In this document: piece after piece, positions 102-4,112 of the stretch | How positions within the stretch are numbered: the first letter of the stretch is position 1 | Layout: each line of letters starts with the position of its first letter | Source of the DNA: a virus | Lineage: Duplodnaviria > Heunggongvirae > Uroviricota > Caudoviricetes | Strand: one strand, 5' to 3' | Length of the DNA stretch: 4,112 nucleotides | Virus record (IMG/VR): IMGVR_UViG_3300014970_000012 | The notes under the pieces: generated by a model | What the model was told of the DNA's origin: nothing | The model's database searches: none | The model's input: the letters and a program-made list of their open reading frames with translations, nothing else | Position numbers and translations under genes: made by a program

Positions 102-1292
102 ATGAGTGACTATCATCACGGCGTGCAGGTGCTGGAGATTAACGACGGCACCCGCGTCATTTCCACCGTATCCACCGCCATTGTTGGCATGGTCTGCACG
201 GCCAGCGATGCGGATGCGGAAATCTTCCCCCTCAATAAACCAGTGCTGATTACCAATGTGCAGAGCGCAATTGCAAAGGCCGGTAAAAAAGGCACGCTGG
301 CGGCATCGTTGCAGGCCATCGCCGACCAGTCAAAACCGGTCACCGTTGTCGTGCGTGTGGAAGACGGCACCGGCGACGACGAGGAAACGAAACTTGCGCA
401 GACCGTTTCCAATATCATCGGCACCACCGACGAAAACGGTCAGTACACCGGACTGAAAGCCCTGCTGGCGGCGGAGTCGGTAACCGGTGTTAAACCGCGT
501 ATTCTCGGTGTGCCGGGACTGGACACCAAAGAGGTGGCTGTTGCACTGGTATCCGTCTGTCAGAAGCTGCGCGCTTTCGGGTATATCAGCGCATGGGGCT
601 GTAAGACCATTTCCGAGGTGAAAGCCTACCGCCAGAATTTCAGCCAGCGTGAGCTGATGGTCATCTGGCCGGATTTCCTCGCATGGGATACGGTCACCAG
701 CACCACCGCCACCGCGTATGCCACCGCCCGTGCGCTGGGTCTGCGTGCCAGAATCGACCAGGAGCAGGGCTGGCATAAAACGCTGTCCAATGTCGGGGTG
801 AACGGTGTTACCGGCATTAGCGCATCTGTATTCTGGGATTTGCAGGAGTCCGGCACCGATGCTGACCTGCTTAACGAGTCAGGCGTCACTACGCTGATTC
901 GCCGCGACGGTTTCCGATTCTGGGGTAACCGTACCTGCTCTGATGACCCGCTGTTCCTCTTTGAAAACTACACCCGCACCGCGCAGGTGCTGGCCGACAC
1001 GATGGCTGAGGCGCACATGTGGGCGGTGGACAAGCCCATCACCGCAACGCTGATTCGCGACATCGTTGACGGCATCAATGCCAAATTCCGTGAGCTGAAA
1101 ACAAACGGCTATATCGTGGATGCGACCTGCTGGTTCAGCGAAGAATCCAACGATGCGGAAACCCTTAAGGCCGGAAAACTGTATATCGACTACGACTATA
1201 CCCCGGTGCCTCCTCTTGAAAACCTGACCCTGCGCCAGCGTATTACCGATAAATACCTGGCAAATCTGGTCACCTCGGTTAACAGCAATTAA
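102..1292 (+). CDS. FI: Contractile tail sheath protein (P2 gpFI family), 396 aa
   Basis: Complete ORF from the six-frame track (ATG 102, TAA 1290-1292). Length and sequence (MSDYHHGVQVLEINDGTRVISTV...YIDYDYTPVPPLENLTLRQRITDKYLANLVTSVNSN) match my recollection of the phage P2 FI sheath protein, and it sits immediately upstream of a tube-like gene. Assignment is by recognition, not by search. Confidence 0.93.
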   Translation: MSDYHHGVQVLEINDGTRVISTVSTAIVGMVCTASDADAEIFPLNKPVLITNVQSAIAKAGKKGTLAASLQAIADQSKPVTVVVRVEDGTGDDEETKLAQTVSNIIGTTDENGQYTGLKALLAAESVTGVKPRILGVPGLDTKEVAVALVSVCQKLRAFGYISAWGCKTISEVKAYRQNFSQRELMVIWPDFLAWDTVTSTTATAYATARALGLRARIDQEQGWHKTLSNVGVNGVTGISASVFWDLQESGTDADLLNESGVTTLIRRDGFRFWGNRTCSDDPLFLFENYTRTAQVLADTMAEAHMWAVDKPITATLIRDIVDGINAKFRELKTNGYIVDATCWFSEESNDAETLKAGKLYIDYDYTPVPPLENLTLRQRITDKYLANLVTSVNSN

Positions 1293-1304: not shown

Positions 1305-1823
1305 ATGGCAATGCCGCGCAAACTCAAGTTAATGAACGTCTTTCTGAACGGCTACAGCTATCAGGGCGTTGCAAAGTCCGTCACGCTGCCAAAACTGACC
1401 CGTAAGCTCGAAAACTATCGCGGTGCGGGGATGAACGGCAGCGCACCGGTAGACCTCGGCCTTGATGACGATGCGCTGTCAATGGAGTGGTCACTCGGTG
1501 GCTTCCCGGATTCGGTTATCTGGGAGCTTTACGCCGCAACCGGTGTGGATGCTGTGCCGATTCGTTTTGCAGGCTCTTACCAGCGTGACGATACCGGCGA
1601 AACGGTGGCCGTCGAAGTGGTCATGCGTGGACGTCAGAAAGAAATCGACACCGGCGAGGGTAAACAGGGAGAAGACACTGAGTCGAAAATCTCCGTGGTC
1701 TGCACCTATTTCCGGCTGACGATGGACGGTAAGGAGCTGGTCGAAATCGACACCATCAACATGATTGAGAAGGTGAACGGCGTCGACCGGCTGGAGCAAC
1801 ACCGCCGCAATATCGGCCTGTGA
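1305..1823 (+). CDS. FII: Tail tube protein (P2 gpFII family), 172 aa
   Basis: Complete ORF (ATG 1305, TGA 1821-1823) directly after the sheath gene. The sequence MAMPRKLKLMNVFLNGYSYQGVAKSVTLPKL... is recognisable as a P2 FII-type tube protein, and the size and position are canonical. Confidence 0.93.
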   Translation: MAMPRKLKLMNVFLNGYSYQGVAKSVTLPKLTRKLENYRGAGMNGSAPVDLGLDDDALSMEWSLGGFPDSVIWELYAATGVDAVPIRFAGSYQRDDTGETVAVEVVMRGRQKEIDTGEGKQGEDTESKISVVCTYFRLTMDGKELVEIDTINMIEKVNGVDRLEQHRRNIGL

Positions 1824-1830
1824 TTTTCAT

Positions 1831-1851
1831 CCGGTCAGCCTGGCTGACCGG
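1831..1851. other. Perfect 21-bp palindrome (CCGGTCAGCC-T-GGCTGACCGG) in the FII-E intergenic region; potential RNA hairpin
   Basis: Arms 1831-1840 and 1842-1851 are exact reverse complements. No U-tract follows on either strand, so it is not a canonical intrinsic terminator. Confidence 0.45.
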
Positions 1852-1879: not shown

Positions 1880-2155
1880 ATGAACAAAGAAAATGTGATT
1901 ACCCTGGACAATCCGGTCAAGCGTGGTGAGCAGGTTATCGAACAGGTCACGCTGATGAAACCTAATGCCGGGACGCTGCGCGGTGTCAGTCTGGCTGCGG
2001 TCGCGAACTCCGAAGTCGATGCACTGATTAAGGTGCTGCCGCGCATGACGGCACCGATGCTGACCGAGCAGGAAGTCGCCGCGCTGGAACTGCCTGACCT
2101 TGTGGCGCTGGCCGGTAAGGTGGTCGGTTTTTTGTCGCCGAACTCGGTGCAGTAA
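1880..2155 (+). CDS. E: Tail assembly chaperone gpE (P2 E family), 91 aa
   Basis: ORF from the track (ATG 1880, TAA 2153-2155), located between the tube and tape measure genes and carrying a slippery heptamer near its 3' end. The sequence resembles P2 gpE. The upstream SD is weak (GAG at 1871-1873). Confidence 0.85.
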   Translation: MNKENVITLDNPVKRGEQVIEQVTLMKPNAGTLRGVSLAAVANSEVDALIKVLPRMTAPMLTEQEVAALELPDLVALAGKVVGFLSPNSVQ

Positions 2156-2307
2156 CGTTCCCGAAAAATCTCTCGGTCGATGACCTGATGGCGGATGTGG
2201 CAGTGATATTTCACTGGCCGCCATCAGAACTGTATCCCATGAGTCTGACCGAACTCATCACATGGCGCGAAAAGGCGCTCCGGCGAAGCGGAAACACGAA
2301 TGAGTAA
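1880..2307 (+). CDS. E+E': Tail assembly chaperone E+E' frameshift fusion, 142 aa (85 aa of E, then 57 aa from the -1 frame)
   Basis: Manual translation after a -1 slip at 2128-2134 gives ...GFL-VAELGAVTFPKNLSVDDLMADVAVIFHWPPSELYPMSLTELITWREKALRRSGNTNE, ending at TAA 2305-2307. The total of 142 aa matches the expected size of P2 gpE+E'. Base 2134 is read twice. Confidence 0.75.
2128..2134 (+). promoter_or_regulatory. Programmed -1 ribosomal frameshift slippery heptamer T_TTT_TTG (X_XXY_YYZ)
   Basis: In the E frame the codons are GGT TTT TTG (2126-2134), so the heptamer 2128-2134 is in the correct phase. The -1 frame is open from here to the TAA at 2305-2307. Confidence 0.78.
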
Positions 2308-4112
2308 CAATGTAAAATTACAGGTATTGCTCAGGGCTGTTGACCAGGCATCCCGCCCGTTTAAATCCATCCGCACAGCGAGTAAGTCGCTGTCGGGGGA
2401 TATCCGGGAAACACAAAAATCACTGCGCGAGCTGAACGGTCACGCATCCCGTATTGAGGGGTTCCGCAAGACCAGTGCACAGCTCGCCGTGACTGGTCAT
2501 GCACTTGAAAAGGCGCGGCAGGAAGCCGAAGCCCTTGCCACACAGTTTAAAAATACCGAACGACCGACCCGTGCTCAGGCGAAAGTGCTGGAATCCGCAA
2601 AGCGTGCGGCGGAGGACTTACAGGCGAAATATAACCGCCTCACGGATTCCGTTAAACGCCAGCAGCGGGAACTGGCCGCTGTGGGAATTAATACCCGCAA
2701 TCTTGCACATGATGAGCAGGGGCTGAAAAACCGTATCAGTGAAACCACCGCACAGCTTAACCGTCAGCGCGACGCACTGGCGCGTGTCAGTGCACAACAG
2801 GCAAAACTTAACGCAGTCAAACAGCGTTATCAGGCCGGAAAAGAACTGGCAGGAAATATGGCCTCAGTGGGCGCTGCCGGTGTGGGGATTGCTGCTGCGG
2901 GAACGATGGCCGGAGTTAAGCTGCTGATGCCCGGTTATGAGTTTGCGCAGAAAAACTCAGAATTGCAGGCTGTGCTCGGTGTGGCAAAAGACTCCGCCGA
3001 AATGGCTGCACTACGCAAGCAGGCGCGCCAGCTCGGTGACAATACCGCCGCCTCAGCGGATGATGCGGCCGGTGCGCAGATTATCATTGCGAAAGCGGGT
3101 GGAGATGTTGATGCCATTCAGGCGGCAACGCCGGTCACGCTGAACATGGCGCTGGCGAACCGTCGCACGATGGAAGAAAACGCCGCCCTGCTGATGGGGA
3201 TGAAATCTGCCTTTCAGCTTTCAAACGATAAGGTCGCTCATATCGGGGATGTTCTCTCCATGACGATGAACAAAACCGCCGCCGATTTTGATGGCATGAG
3301 CGATGCGCTGACCTATGCCGCACCTGTGGCAAAAAATGCCGGTGTCAGCATTGAAGAAACCGCCGCAATGGTCGGGGCGCTGCATGATGCAAAAATTACC
3401 GGTTCAATGGCGGGGACGGGAAGCCGTGCCGTGTTAAGCCGCCTGCAGGCACCGACGGGAAAAGCATGGGATGCACTGAAAGAGCTTGGCGTGAAAACCT
3501 CAGACAGCAAGGGGAATACCCGACCAGTATTTACCATTCTGAAAGAAATGCAGGCCAGTTTTGAGAAAAACCGGCTCGGTACTGCCCAGCAGGCTGAATA
3601 CATGAAAACTATTTTCGGGGAGGAGGCCAGCTCAGCCGCCGCCGTGCTGATGACTGCCGCCTCAACTGGAAAGCTGGACAAACTGACCGCTGCGTTTAAA
3701 GCCTCAGACGGGAAGACCGCCGAGCTGGTAAATATCATGCAGGACAACCTCGGCGGTGACTTTAAGGAGTTTCAGTCCGCTTATGAGGCGGTGGGGACTG
3801 ACCTGTTTGACCAGCAGGAAGGCGCACTGCGTAAGCTCACGCAGACGGCCACAAAGTATGTGTTAAAACTCGACGGCTGGATACAGAAAAACAAATCACT
3901 GGCGTCAACCATCGGCATCATTGTCGGTGGTGCACTGGCACTGATTGGTGTCATCGGTGCCATTGGCCTCGTAGCCTGGCCGGTTATCACCGGCATCAAT
4001 GCCATCATCGCGGCAGCAGGCGCAATGGGAGCAATCTTCACGACGGTTGGCAGTGCTGTTATGACGGCCATCGGGGCGATTAGCTGGCCGGTTGTGGCCG
4101 TGGTGGCCGCCA
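2300..4112 (+). CDS. T: Tail tape measure protein (P2 gpT family), 5' partial: 604 codons in the window, 3' end beyond the window
   Basis: This frame has no stop from 2249 to the window end, and the first ATG is at 2300, overlapping the E' stop (ATGAGTAA). Manual translation begins MSNNVKLQVLLRAVDQASRPFKSIRTASKSLSGDIRETQKSLRELNGHA... with a coiled-coil-like N-terminus and Ala/Gly-rich hydrophobic repeats near the window end, as is typical of tape measure proteins. It is absent from the supplied ORF track, presumably because no stop lies inside the window. Confidence 0.9.
   Translation, partial: MSNNVKLQVLLRAVDQASRPFKSIRTASKSLSGDIRETQKSLRELNGHASRIEGFRKTSAQLAVTGHALEKARQEAEALATQFKNTERPTRAQAKVLESAKRAAEDLQAKYNRLTDSVKRQQRELAAVGINTRNLAHDEQGLKNRISETTAQLNRQRDALARVSAQQAKLNAVKQRYQAGKELAGNMASVGAAGVGIAAAGTMAGVKLLMPGYEFAQKNSELQAVLGVAKDSAEMAALRKQARQLGDNTAASADDAAGAQIIIAKAGGDVDAIQAATPVTLNMALANRRTMEENAALLMGMKSAFQLSNDKVAHIGDVLSMTMNKTAADFDGMSDALTYAAPVAKNAGVSIEETAAMVGALHDAKITGSMAGTGSRAVLSRLQAPTGKAWDALKELGVKTSDSKGNTRPVFTILKEMQASFEKNRLGTAQQAEYMKTIFGEEASSAAAVLMTAASTGKLDKLTAAFKASDGKTAELVNIMQDNLGGDFKEFQSAYEAVGTDLFDQQEGALRKLTQTATKYVLKLDGWIQKNKSLASTIGIIVGGALALIGVIGAIGLVAWPVITGINAIIAAAGAMGAIFTTVGSAVMTAIGAISWPVVAVVAA

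What the first reader, a model, noticed from the sequence alone, without database searches (positions are those of the whole stretch)
2126..2307. Programmed -1 frameshift producing E+E' from the chaperone gene
The heptamer T_TTT_TTG is in the correct phase in E, and the -1 frame stays open for 57 codons to a TAA at 2305-2307, giving a 142-aa fusion. This is the conserved tail-chaperone frameshift, analogous to lambda G/GT and described for P2 E/E'. It should be annotated as a join rather than left as a missing gene.
Basis: partly seen in the sequence, partly recalled or inferred. Interest (0 to 1): 0.45.

Follow-up and report, generated by a model that had tools for sequence, protein, structure and literature searches.

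The report
Known phage P2 tail-chaperone frameshift site

Summary
The window is a P2-like prophage tail operon, 97.1% identical to phage P2 over 3663 bases: FI sheath, FII tube, E, E', T tape measure. Gene E (1880-2155, 91 aa) carries an in-phase T_TTT_TTG heptamer at 2128-2134. The -1 frame runs from 2134 for 57 codons to TAA at 2305-2307, giving a 142-aa fusion.

That fusion is 141/142 identical to the P2 gpE+E' protein. GenBank AF063097 annotates this protein as a join with a "site of -1 translational frameshift" at the same base. The extension matches Pfam PF06528 (Phage_P2_GpE, E = 2e-22) and the E part matches PF10109 (tail assembly chaperone).

- An in-phase slippery heptamer followed by a homologous -1 extension is kept in 26 of 27 related bacterial loci and in 8 distant phages, some with other heptamers (G_GGA_AAG, A_AAT_TTT).
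- All 119 viral contigs retrieved have exactly six T.
- GGTTTTTTGTC is invariant in 24 distinct sequences, although 78 of 79 third codon positions vary elsewhere in E.
- No stimulatory RNA structure lies next to the site, as published for P2.

RefSeq annotation often calls E' as a separate 39-aa gene. Novelty: none.

The parts
102..1292 (+). FI, tail sheath gene (396 aa)
   Evidence: ORF. Pfam Phage_sheath_1, sheath_1C and Gp18_domIII_N. Corresponds to P2 gpFI.
1305..1823 (+). FII, tail tube gene (172 aa)
   Evidence: ORF. Pfam PF04985 Phage_tube, E = 2e-60.
1880..2155 (+). E, tail assembly chaperone, product of standard decoding (91 aa)
   Evidence: Pfam PF10109 Phage_TAC_7, 47 bits against a cut-off of 25. 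PHROG 103, E = 3e-45.
2119..2155 (+). Stretch in which both the E frame and the -1 frame are open; the shift must occur here
   Evidence: the -1 frame opens at 2119 and the E stop codon starts at 2153.
2128..2134 (+). Slippery heptamer T_TTT_TTG, in phase with E
   Evidence: Same base as the P2 misc_feature 'site of -1 translational frameshift'. GGTTTTTTGTC is invariant in 24 distinct relatives. All 119 IMG/VR matches have six T.
2134..2307 (+). E' extension, -1 frame (57 codons plus TAA). The full product E+E' is join(1880..2134, 2134..2307), 142 aa.
   Evidence: Pfam PF06528 Phage_P2_GpE, E = 2e-22. 57/57 identical to P2 E'. Variation over 2188-2299 follows this frame's codon positions: 18/38, 10/37 and 32/37 sites vary at positions 1, 2 and 3.
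2300..4112 (+). T, tape measure gene. Its start ATG at 2300 overlaps the E' stop (ATGAGTAA). The gene runs off the window.
   Evidence: Pfam PF10145 PhageMin_Tail, E = 1e-45. P2 T starts at the homologous base.

Best explanation
This is the programmed -1 ribosomal frameshift site of the tail-assembly chaperone gene E of a P2-type (Peduovirus) prophage. Most ribosomes read E through to its stop at 2153-2155 and make the 91-aa gpE. A minority slip back one base while decoding T_TTT_TTG (2128-2134). In that slip, tRNA-Phe on UUU and tRNA-Leu on UUG re-pair on UUU UUU. These ribosomes continue from GUC at 2134 through 57 more codons and make the 142-aa gpE+E'. The two proteins share their N-terminal 85 residues.

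The function is inferred by analogy with lambda gpG/gpGT. The shared E domain would coat the tape measure protein T. The E' domain would recruit the tube protein FII. The low fixed ratio set by the frameshift would be needed for correct tail assembly.

Shown here: the anatomy, the near-identity to P2, the homology of both parts, and purifying selection on the heptamer and on the -1 frame. Taken from the literature: that P2 really makes both proteins by a -1 shift at TTTTTTG. Inferred: tandem slippage as opposed to P-site-only slippage, and the binding partners of the two domains.
For: - The fusion is 141/142 identical to P2 gpE+E'. The P2 record AF063097 annotates a join, a 'site of -1 translational frameshift' and 'essential tail protein'. 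The L-413C record does the same.
- Pfam PF10109 matches residues 7-85 and PF06528 matches the -1 extension, both well above their gathering scores. PHROGs 103 and 1756 also match.
- The gene order is sheath, tube, E/E', tape measure.
- 26 of 27 related bacterial loci (52-95% E identity) keep an in-phase T_TTT_TTN and a 57-62 codon homologous -1 extension. The one exception is an indel-ridden assembly.
- Eight distant phages (Burkholderia, Pseudomonas phiCTX, Ralstonia, Klebsiella, Mannheimia, Aeromonas, Microcystis, Xuanwuvirus) all have E' in the -1 frame with an in-phase slippery heptamer. These include the non-homopolymeric G_GGA_AAG and A_AAT_TTT.
- 401 of 418 phage records match the fusion over at least 80% of its length; every listed match of that kind falls in two pieces.
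- The three synonymous sites inside the heptamer (2128, 2131, 2134) never vary in 24 distinct sequences, whereas 78 of 79 third positions vary in the rest of E.
- All 119 IMG/VR matches have exactly six T.
- Literature: PMC3091744 states that the P2 -1 frameshift occurs at TTTTTTG and gives the 91-aa E and the 142-aa E+E' (citing Christie 2002 and Xu 2004), and that no downstream structure is present. PMC5009743 describes the lambda G/GT mechanism.
Against: - Nothing contradicts the reading.
- No experiment on this particular prophage exists. The primary paper (Christie et al. 2002) could not be read here, so the experimental basis is cited second-hand.
- U_UU.U_UU.G is not among the motifs listed as most efficient in E. 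coli by PMC4066793. No stimulator lies next to the site (z = 0.10). The efficiency is therefore probably low and cannot be estimated from sequence.
- Sequence alone cannot say whether the junction residue is Leu (tandem slip) or Phe (P-site slip or transcriptional slippage).
Confidence: 0.95

Rival explanations
1. E' is a separate small gene translated on its own from the ATG at 2188, giving a 39-aa protein as RefSeq/PGAP annotates it. No frameshift is involved.
For: PGAP annotates WP_000785970.1, 'GpE family phage tail protein', as a free-standing CDS at the homologous 2188-2307. Several phage records do likewise. The Pfam PF06528 model covers only residues 19-54 of the extension, which is roughly the region after that ATG.
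Against: No Shine-Dalgarno-like sequence precedes ATG 2188 (atctctcggtcgatgacctgATG). That Met is replaced by Ile, Val, Ala, Glu or Gln in Mannheimia, Klebsiella, Xuanwuvirus, Microcystis, Ralstonia, Aeromonas and Croceibacterium relatives. In every relative the -1 frame stays open back to the heptamer, and residues upstream of the Met (VDDL) are conserved. The invariant synonymous sites of the heptamer would be unexplained. P2 is reported to make a 142-aa E+E' (PMC3091744).
Confidence: 0.02
2. The fusion arises wholly or partly by transcriptional slippage. RNA polymerase adds one extra U on the T6 run, and the resulting mRNA encodes E fused in frame to E' with the junction GFFVAEL.
For: The site is a homopolymer. 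A one-base insertion gives the same downstream frame. DNA-level T7 and T4 variants that fuse the frames exist in public assemblies, which shows the run is indel-prone at least during replication or sequencing.
Against: Six T is shorter than the runs known to give substantial polymerase slippage; this rests on general knowledge and was not tested here. Distant family members use G_GGA_AAG or A_AAT_TTT at the equivalent place. Those are two-tRNA slippery heptamers, not homopolymers. The heptamer is in the X_XXY_YYZ phase in all relatives. The site is published and annotated as a translational frameshift (PMC3091744).
Confidence: 0.03
3. It is a chance coincidence of a T-rich heptamer with an open alternative frame, and no second product is made.
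For: TTTTTTG is expected about once per window by chance. Long open alternative frames are common in this window.
Against: The extension matches a curated family at E = 2e-22. It shows coding-type variation in its own frame. It is conserved together with the heptamer across proteobacterial Peduoviridae.
Confidence: 0.005

Closest known systems
Bacteriophage P2 genes E and E+E' (GenBank AF063097, AAD03291/AAD03292; Christie et al. 2002, J Bacteriol 184:6522)
   Same: The gene order, the heptamer T_TTT_TTG and the shift base are the same, as are the 91-aa and 142-aa products. The protein is 141/142 identical (N29 in place of S29). The E-E' DNA is 418/428 identical, and the window is 97.1% identical to P2 over 3663 bases.
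   Different: Only point substitutions differ, for example the E stop is TAA here and TGA in P2 (position 2154). This copy sits in an E. coli chromosome as a prophage. Matching sequence is found in 1583 of 5426 complete E. coli genomes.
Phage lambda G / GT tail assembly chaperone frameshift (Levin, Hendrix and Casjens 1993; Xu, Hendrix and Duda 2004, 2013, 2014)
   Same: The gene lies between the major tail (tube) gene and the tape measure gene. [quoted passage not shown] Neither protein is expected in the virion (PMC5009743, PMC3091744).
   Different: The heptamer differs (G_GGA_AAG in lambda). There is no detectable sequence similarity: the Pfam scan gave only PF10109 and PF06528. This is a contractile-tail phage rather than a siphophage. 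The binding partners of E and E' are inferred, not shown.
E. coli dnaX gamma/tau frameshift (A_AAA_AAG with an upstream Shine-Dalgarno sequence and a downstream hairpin)
   Same: A -1 tandem slippage on a heptamer in E. coli gives two products from one start.
   Different: dnaX relies on two strong stimulators and shifts at high efficiency into a short frame. Here no adjacent stimulatory hairpin is predicted, and the shift leads to a longer product.

Membership tests
P2 gpE / gpE+E' (Peduoviridae tail assembly chaperone pair) | The N-terminal part belongs to the E/gp41/gp14 chaperone family (Pfam PF10109) | tested here: met
   47 bits against a gathering score of 25, residues 7-85. PHROG 103, E = 3e-45.
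P2 gpE / gpE+E' (Peduoviridae tail assembly chaperone pair) | The -1 frame extension belongs to Pfam PF06528 Phage_P2_GpE | tested here: met
   78.7 bits against a gathering score of 23. 57/57 identical to P2 E'.
P2 gpE / gpE+E' (Peduoviridae tail assembly chaperone pair) | In-phase slippery heptamer TTTTTTG at the P2 shift position, inside the stretch where both frames are open | tested here: met
   Heptamer at 2128-2134. It aligns with the P2 misc_feature at base 19685.
P2 gpE / gpE+E' (Peduoviridae tail assembly chaperone pair) | Gene order FI (sheath), FII (tube), E/E', T (tape measure) | tested here: met
P2 gpE / gpE+E' (Peduoviridae tail assembly chaperone pair) | Both the 91-aa and the 142-aa proteins are made, and both are essential for tail assembly | not testable with these tools
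   Reported for P2 (annotation; PMC3091744 citing Christie 2002). The primary paper is not held.
Conserved tail-assembly-chaperone frameshift of dsDNA tailed phages (lambda G/GT type, Xu et al. 2004) | Two overlapping ORFs between the major tail/tube gene and the tape measure gene, the second without a conserved start of its own | tested here: met
   The internal Met at 2188 is not conserved in distant relatives and has no Shine-Dalgarno sequence.
Conserved tail-assembly-chaperone frameshift of dsDNA tailed phages (lambda G/GT type, Xu et al. 2004) | The slippery sequence and the frame relation are conserved among relatives | tested here: met
   26/27 bacterial loci, 8/8 distant phages and 119/119 viral contigs. 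Synonymous sites in the heptamer are invariant.
Conserved tail-assembly-chaperone frameshift of dsDNA tailed phages (lambda G/GT type, Xu et al. 2004) | Sequence membership of the lambda gpG / gpT protein families themselves | tested here: not met
   The Pfam scan at E <= 0.01 returned only PF10109 and PF06528. The relation to lambda G/GT is one of position and mechanism, not of detectable sequence homology.
Conserved tail-assembly-chaperone frameshift of dsDNA tailed phages (lambda G/GT type, Xu et al. 2004) | The chaperone domain binds the tape measure protein, and the extension binds the tube protein | not testable with these tools
   Inferred from lambda (PMC5009743). The structure model gave only weak support: Foldseek against BFVD found small chaperone-like proteins and a 'tape measure chaperone', and there was no PDB match.

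The most novel reading that the evidence does not exclude
The most novel reading not excluded concerns the hairpin at 2185-2228, inside the E' coding region and 51 nt downstream of the shift site. It could be a functional RNA element rather than a by-product of the conserved LMAD...PPSE peptide motifs. Together with the overlap of the E' stop and the T start (ATGAGTAA), it might tune frameshift efficiency at a distance or couple tape-measure translation to the frameshifted ribosomes. A related possibility is that length changes of the T run (T4 and T7 alleles exist in assemblies) act as an on/off switch for prophage tail production.
Probability: 0.05. Interest if true: 0.35.

Novelty: already known. 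Interest (0 to 1): 0.07.

Why it matters
The main value is for annotation. The frameshift is a textbook case of recoding that sets the ratio of two tail-assembly chaperones. Automatic pipelines nevertheless still split it into a 91-aa 'tail assembly protein' and a spurious 39-aa 'GpE family' gene in well over a thousand E. coli genomes. Annotating join(1880..2134, 2134..2307) gives the true 142-aa product. Nothing here changes what is known about the mechanism.

Tried and rejected
- **NCBIfam:** the scan of E, E' and the fusion gave no hits.
- **PDB:** the sequence search gave only a chance hit at E = 1. Foldseek of the AlphaFold model against PDB gave nothing at E <= 0.001. Only one of the five models was confident (pLDDT 83.6 against 59.6 or lower), so the model carries little weight.
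- **Rfam:** the scan of the whole window at E <= 1 gave no match, so no curated frameshift element is present.
- **Adjacent stimulator:** the 60 nt after the heptamer fold no better than shuffles (z = 0.10). A 5-bp hairpin at 2136-2149 (-6 kcal/mol) starts too close to the heptamer and is too weak.
- **Terminator-like hit:** the scan flagged 2107-2128 plus the T run. It is a G.U-rich stem of -9.9 kcal/mol, and the number of such hits is within the shuffle expectation.
- **SD-like AGGTG at 2118-2122:** it lies only 5 nt upstream of the heptamer and sits in conserved codons (K-V-V-G), so no conclusion can be drawn.
- **L028, the one locus without the heptamer (T5):** it has 7 single-base gaps in 562 bases, and its sheath and tape measure ORFs are broken. 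I reject it as counter-evidence.
- **Literature:** the primary paper Christie 2002 could not be opened by DOI or PMC id. No measured efficiency for U_UU.U_UU.G in E. coli was found in the main text of PMC4066793.

Full report
**What is in the window.** The window contains four co-directional genes on the + strand.
- ORF 102-1292 (396 aa) matches the phage sheath domains.
- ORF 1305-1823 (172 aa) matches Phage_tube FII at E = 2e-60.
- ORF 1880-2155 (91 aa) matches PF10109, 'Phage tail assembly chaperone proteins, E, or 41 or 14'.
- The open frame from ATG 2300 to the end of the window matches the tape measure family PF10145.

This is the FI-FII-E-T part of the P2 tail operon. The window aligns without gaps to phage P2 (AF063097) at 97.1% identity over 3663 bases. 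The 601 bases around the finding are 100% identical to an E. coli chromosome, and similar sequence occurs in 1583 of 5426 complete E. coli genomes. The window is therefore a common P2-like prophage.

**Checking the observation.** E ends ...GGT(2126) TTT(2129) TTG(2132) TCG CCG AAC TCG GTG CAG TAA. The heptamer TTTTTTG occupies 2128-2134 and is in the X_XXY_YYZ phase. From 2134 the -1 frame reads VAELGAVTFPKNLSVDDLMADVAVIFHWPPSELYPMSLTELITWREKALRRSGNTNE and stops at TAA 2305-2307. That makes 85 + 57 = 142 residues. The -1 frame opens only at 2119, so the two frames are both open for just 37 bases, and the heptamer lies within them. It is the only in-phase X_XXY_YYZ motif in E and one of three in all 1266 codons of the window's genes. 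Taken alone, the motif (1.09 expected per window) and the open frame are not significant. The case rests on the evidence below.

**Identity with the known P2 site.** Translating the P2 join and the window's join gives proteins that differ at one residue of 142 (N29/S29). The E' part is identical. Yersinia phage L-413C is annotated the same way. [quoted passage not shown] 2002 and Xu et al. 2004. I could not open the primary paper.

**Homology of the extension.**
- The 57-aa extension matches Pfam PF06528 Phage_P2_GpE at E = 2e-22 (78.7 bits against a cut-off of 23).
- It also matches PHROGs 1756 and 6416, both tail proteins.
- In the 5.8-billion-protein search, annotated gpE+E' proteins such as that of phage Wphi are 99% identical.

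**Conservation of the heptamer and frame.**
- Among 27 loci from other bacterial species (52-95% E identity), 26 have an in-phase T_TTT_TTG at the homologous position, followed by a 57-62 codon -1 extension homologous to E'. The third-base variants are one T_TTT_TTA and one T_TTT_TTC.
- The one exception, L028, has five T. It also has seven single-base gaps in 562 bases, and its neighbouring genes are broken. It is an error-rich or decayed copy.
- A pattern allowing four to eight bases in the run retrieved 119 IMG/VR contigs, all with exactly six T.
- In a gap-free alignment of 24 distinct sequences, GGTTTTTTGTC is invariant. This includes the three synonymous sites 2128, 2131 and 2134. By contrast, 78 of 79 third codon positions vary in the rest of E. 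That is selection on the nucleotide sequence itself.
- Downstream, variation over 2188-2299 follows the codon positions of the E' frame: 18/38, 10/37 and 32/37 sites vary at positions 1, 2 and 3.
- A tblastn search with the fusion found 418 phage records. In 401 of them the match covers at least 80% of the fusion, and every listed match of that kind falls in two pieces.
- Eight distant examples all place E' in the -1 frame behind an in-phase slippery heptamer. T_TTT_TTG occurs in Burkholderia PhiBP82.2, Pseudomonas phiCTX, a Klebsiella Elveevirus and Ralstonia RSY1. T_TTT_TTC occurs in an Aeromonas phage and T_TTT_TTT in a Microcystis phage. G_GGA_AAG, the lambda heptamer, occurs in a Mannheimia phage, and A_AAT_TTT in an E. 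coli Xuanwuvirus.
- Replacement of the T run by other classical two-tRNA heptamers argues that the conserved property is ribosomal slipperiness, not the T run as such.

**Mechanism.** The best-supported reading is simultaneous slippage of tRNA-Phe (UUU) and tRNA-Leu (UUG) onto UUU UUU, with decoding resuming at GUC 2134. I found no stimulator.
- The 60 nt after the site fold no better than shuffles (z = 0.10).
- Rfam has no match.
- PMC3091744 reports that such structures are absent in P2 and its Burkholderia relatives.
- PMC4066793 does not list U_UU.U_UU.G among the most efficient E. coli motifs. This fits a low-level shift that yields a minor product, as with lambda G:GT at about 30:1 (PMC5009743).

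The roles of the two proteins are inferred from lambda, not shown here: E coats the tape measure, and E' recruits the tube protein. A structure model of the fusion (pLDDT 83.6, but only one of five models was confident) has no PDB counterpart. Among viral models it resembles small 83-89-aa proteins and a 'tape measure chaperone'.

**Rivals.**
- *Independent translation of a 39-aa E' from ATG 2188,* as PGAP annotates it. This is unlikely. There is no Shine-Dalgarno sequence. The Met is not conserved in distant relatives. Conserved residues and an open frame extend upstream to the heptamer. The invariant synonymous sites would be unexplained.
- *Transcriptional slippage on T6.* It would give the same frame with a Phe at the junction. 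Sequence cannot exclude it, but the non-homopolymeric heptamers in relatives and the short run make it unlikely as the main route.
- *Chance.* This is excluded by the homology.

**Verdict.** The feature is already known in full. Its only practical consequence is correct annotation as join(1880..2134, 2134..2307).

Noticed in passing
window 2185-2228: A strong hairpin (CUGAUGGCGG...CCGCCAUCAG, about -25 kcal/mol) lies inside the E' coding region, 51 nt after the shift site. The 100 nt downstream of the site fold with z = -3.2. Across 27 relatives, 96% of cells are paired, with one covarying pair, but most pairs lie in conserved LMAD/PPSE codons. A comparable hairpin appears in Burkholderia PhiBP82.2 and a Croceibacterium prophage, but not in the Mannheimia, Aeromonas or Ralstonia phages. 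It is too far from the site for a canonical stimulator, and its function is unknown.
   Followed up: partly
window 1831-1851 (FII-E intergenic region): A perfect 9-bp inverted repeat, CCGGTCAGC CTG GCTGACCGG, lies just after the FII stop and has no T tail. The same repeat is seen in Kosakonia and Enterobacter relatives (alignment). A Mannheimia phage record annotates a rho-independent terminator at the equivalent position. It could be an attenuator or mRNA-stability element that lowers expression of E, T, U and D relative to sheath and tube.
   Followed up: partly
L045-L048 (T7) and L039-L044 (T4), at the homologue of window 2128-2133: Some public assemblies carry seven T (junction GFFVAEL, 142 aa) or four T (GFVAEL, 144 aa in a Serratia/Yersinia-type element). 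Both changes fuse E and E' in one frame. The T4 allele is seen on 11 contigs of one SRR233845xx/233846xx series with intact neighbouring genes. Two of the T7 contigs have fragmented neighbours, which suggests homopolymer errors. These could be real slip-site mutants of defective prophages or sequencing artefacts.
   Followed up: partly
window 2300-2307: The tape measure start ATG (2300) overlaps the E' stop TAA (2305-2307) as ATGAGTAA. Ribosomes that frameshifted therefore terminate right at the T start, whereas ribosomes finishing E stop 145 nt upstream. The arrangement is the same in P2. Possible termination-reinitiation coupling was not examined.
   Followed up: no
L002 2389-2508 (= window 2188-2307) and many E. 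coli RefSeq genomes: PGAP annotates E' as a separate 39-aa CDS, 'GpE family phage tail protein' (WP_000785970.1), and annotates no E+E' join. Several phage records do the same. The Ralstonia RSY1 record instead calls the whole long -1 frame ORF as one gene.
   Followed up: yes
L009 (Vagococcus sp. WN89Y) and L030 (Asticcacaulis sp. AC460, 799-bp contig): Assemblies labelled as a Firmicute and an alphaproteobacterium carry enterobacterial-type P2-like E/E' sequence (82% and about 88% identity to the query in the matched part). This is probably contamination of those assemblies.
   Followed up: no
window 3331-3337 and 3457-3463 (inside T): Two other in-phase X_XXY_YYZ heptamers occur in T. A_AAA_AAT leads into a 5-codon -1 frame, and G_GGA_AAA leads into a 33-codon -1 frame. 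No evidence of function was found, and they are probably chance.
   Followed up: no
window 2107-2128: A weak G.U-rich hairpin (-9.9 kcal/mol) directly precedes the T run and was flagged as terminator-like. An SD-like AGGTG lies at 2118-2122. The number of terminator-like hits is within the shuffle expectation, and the sequence is constrained by the K-V-V-G codons.
   Followed up: partly
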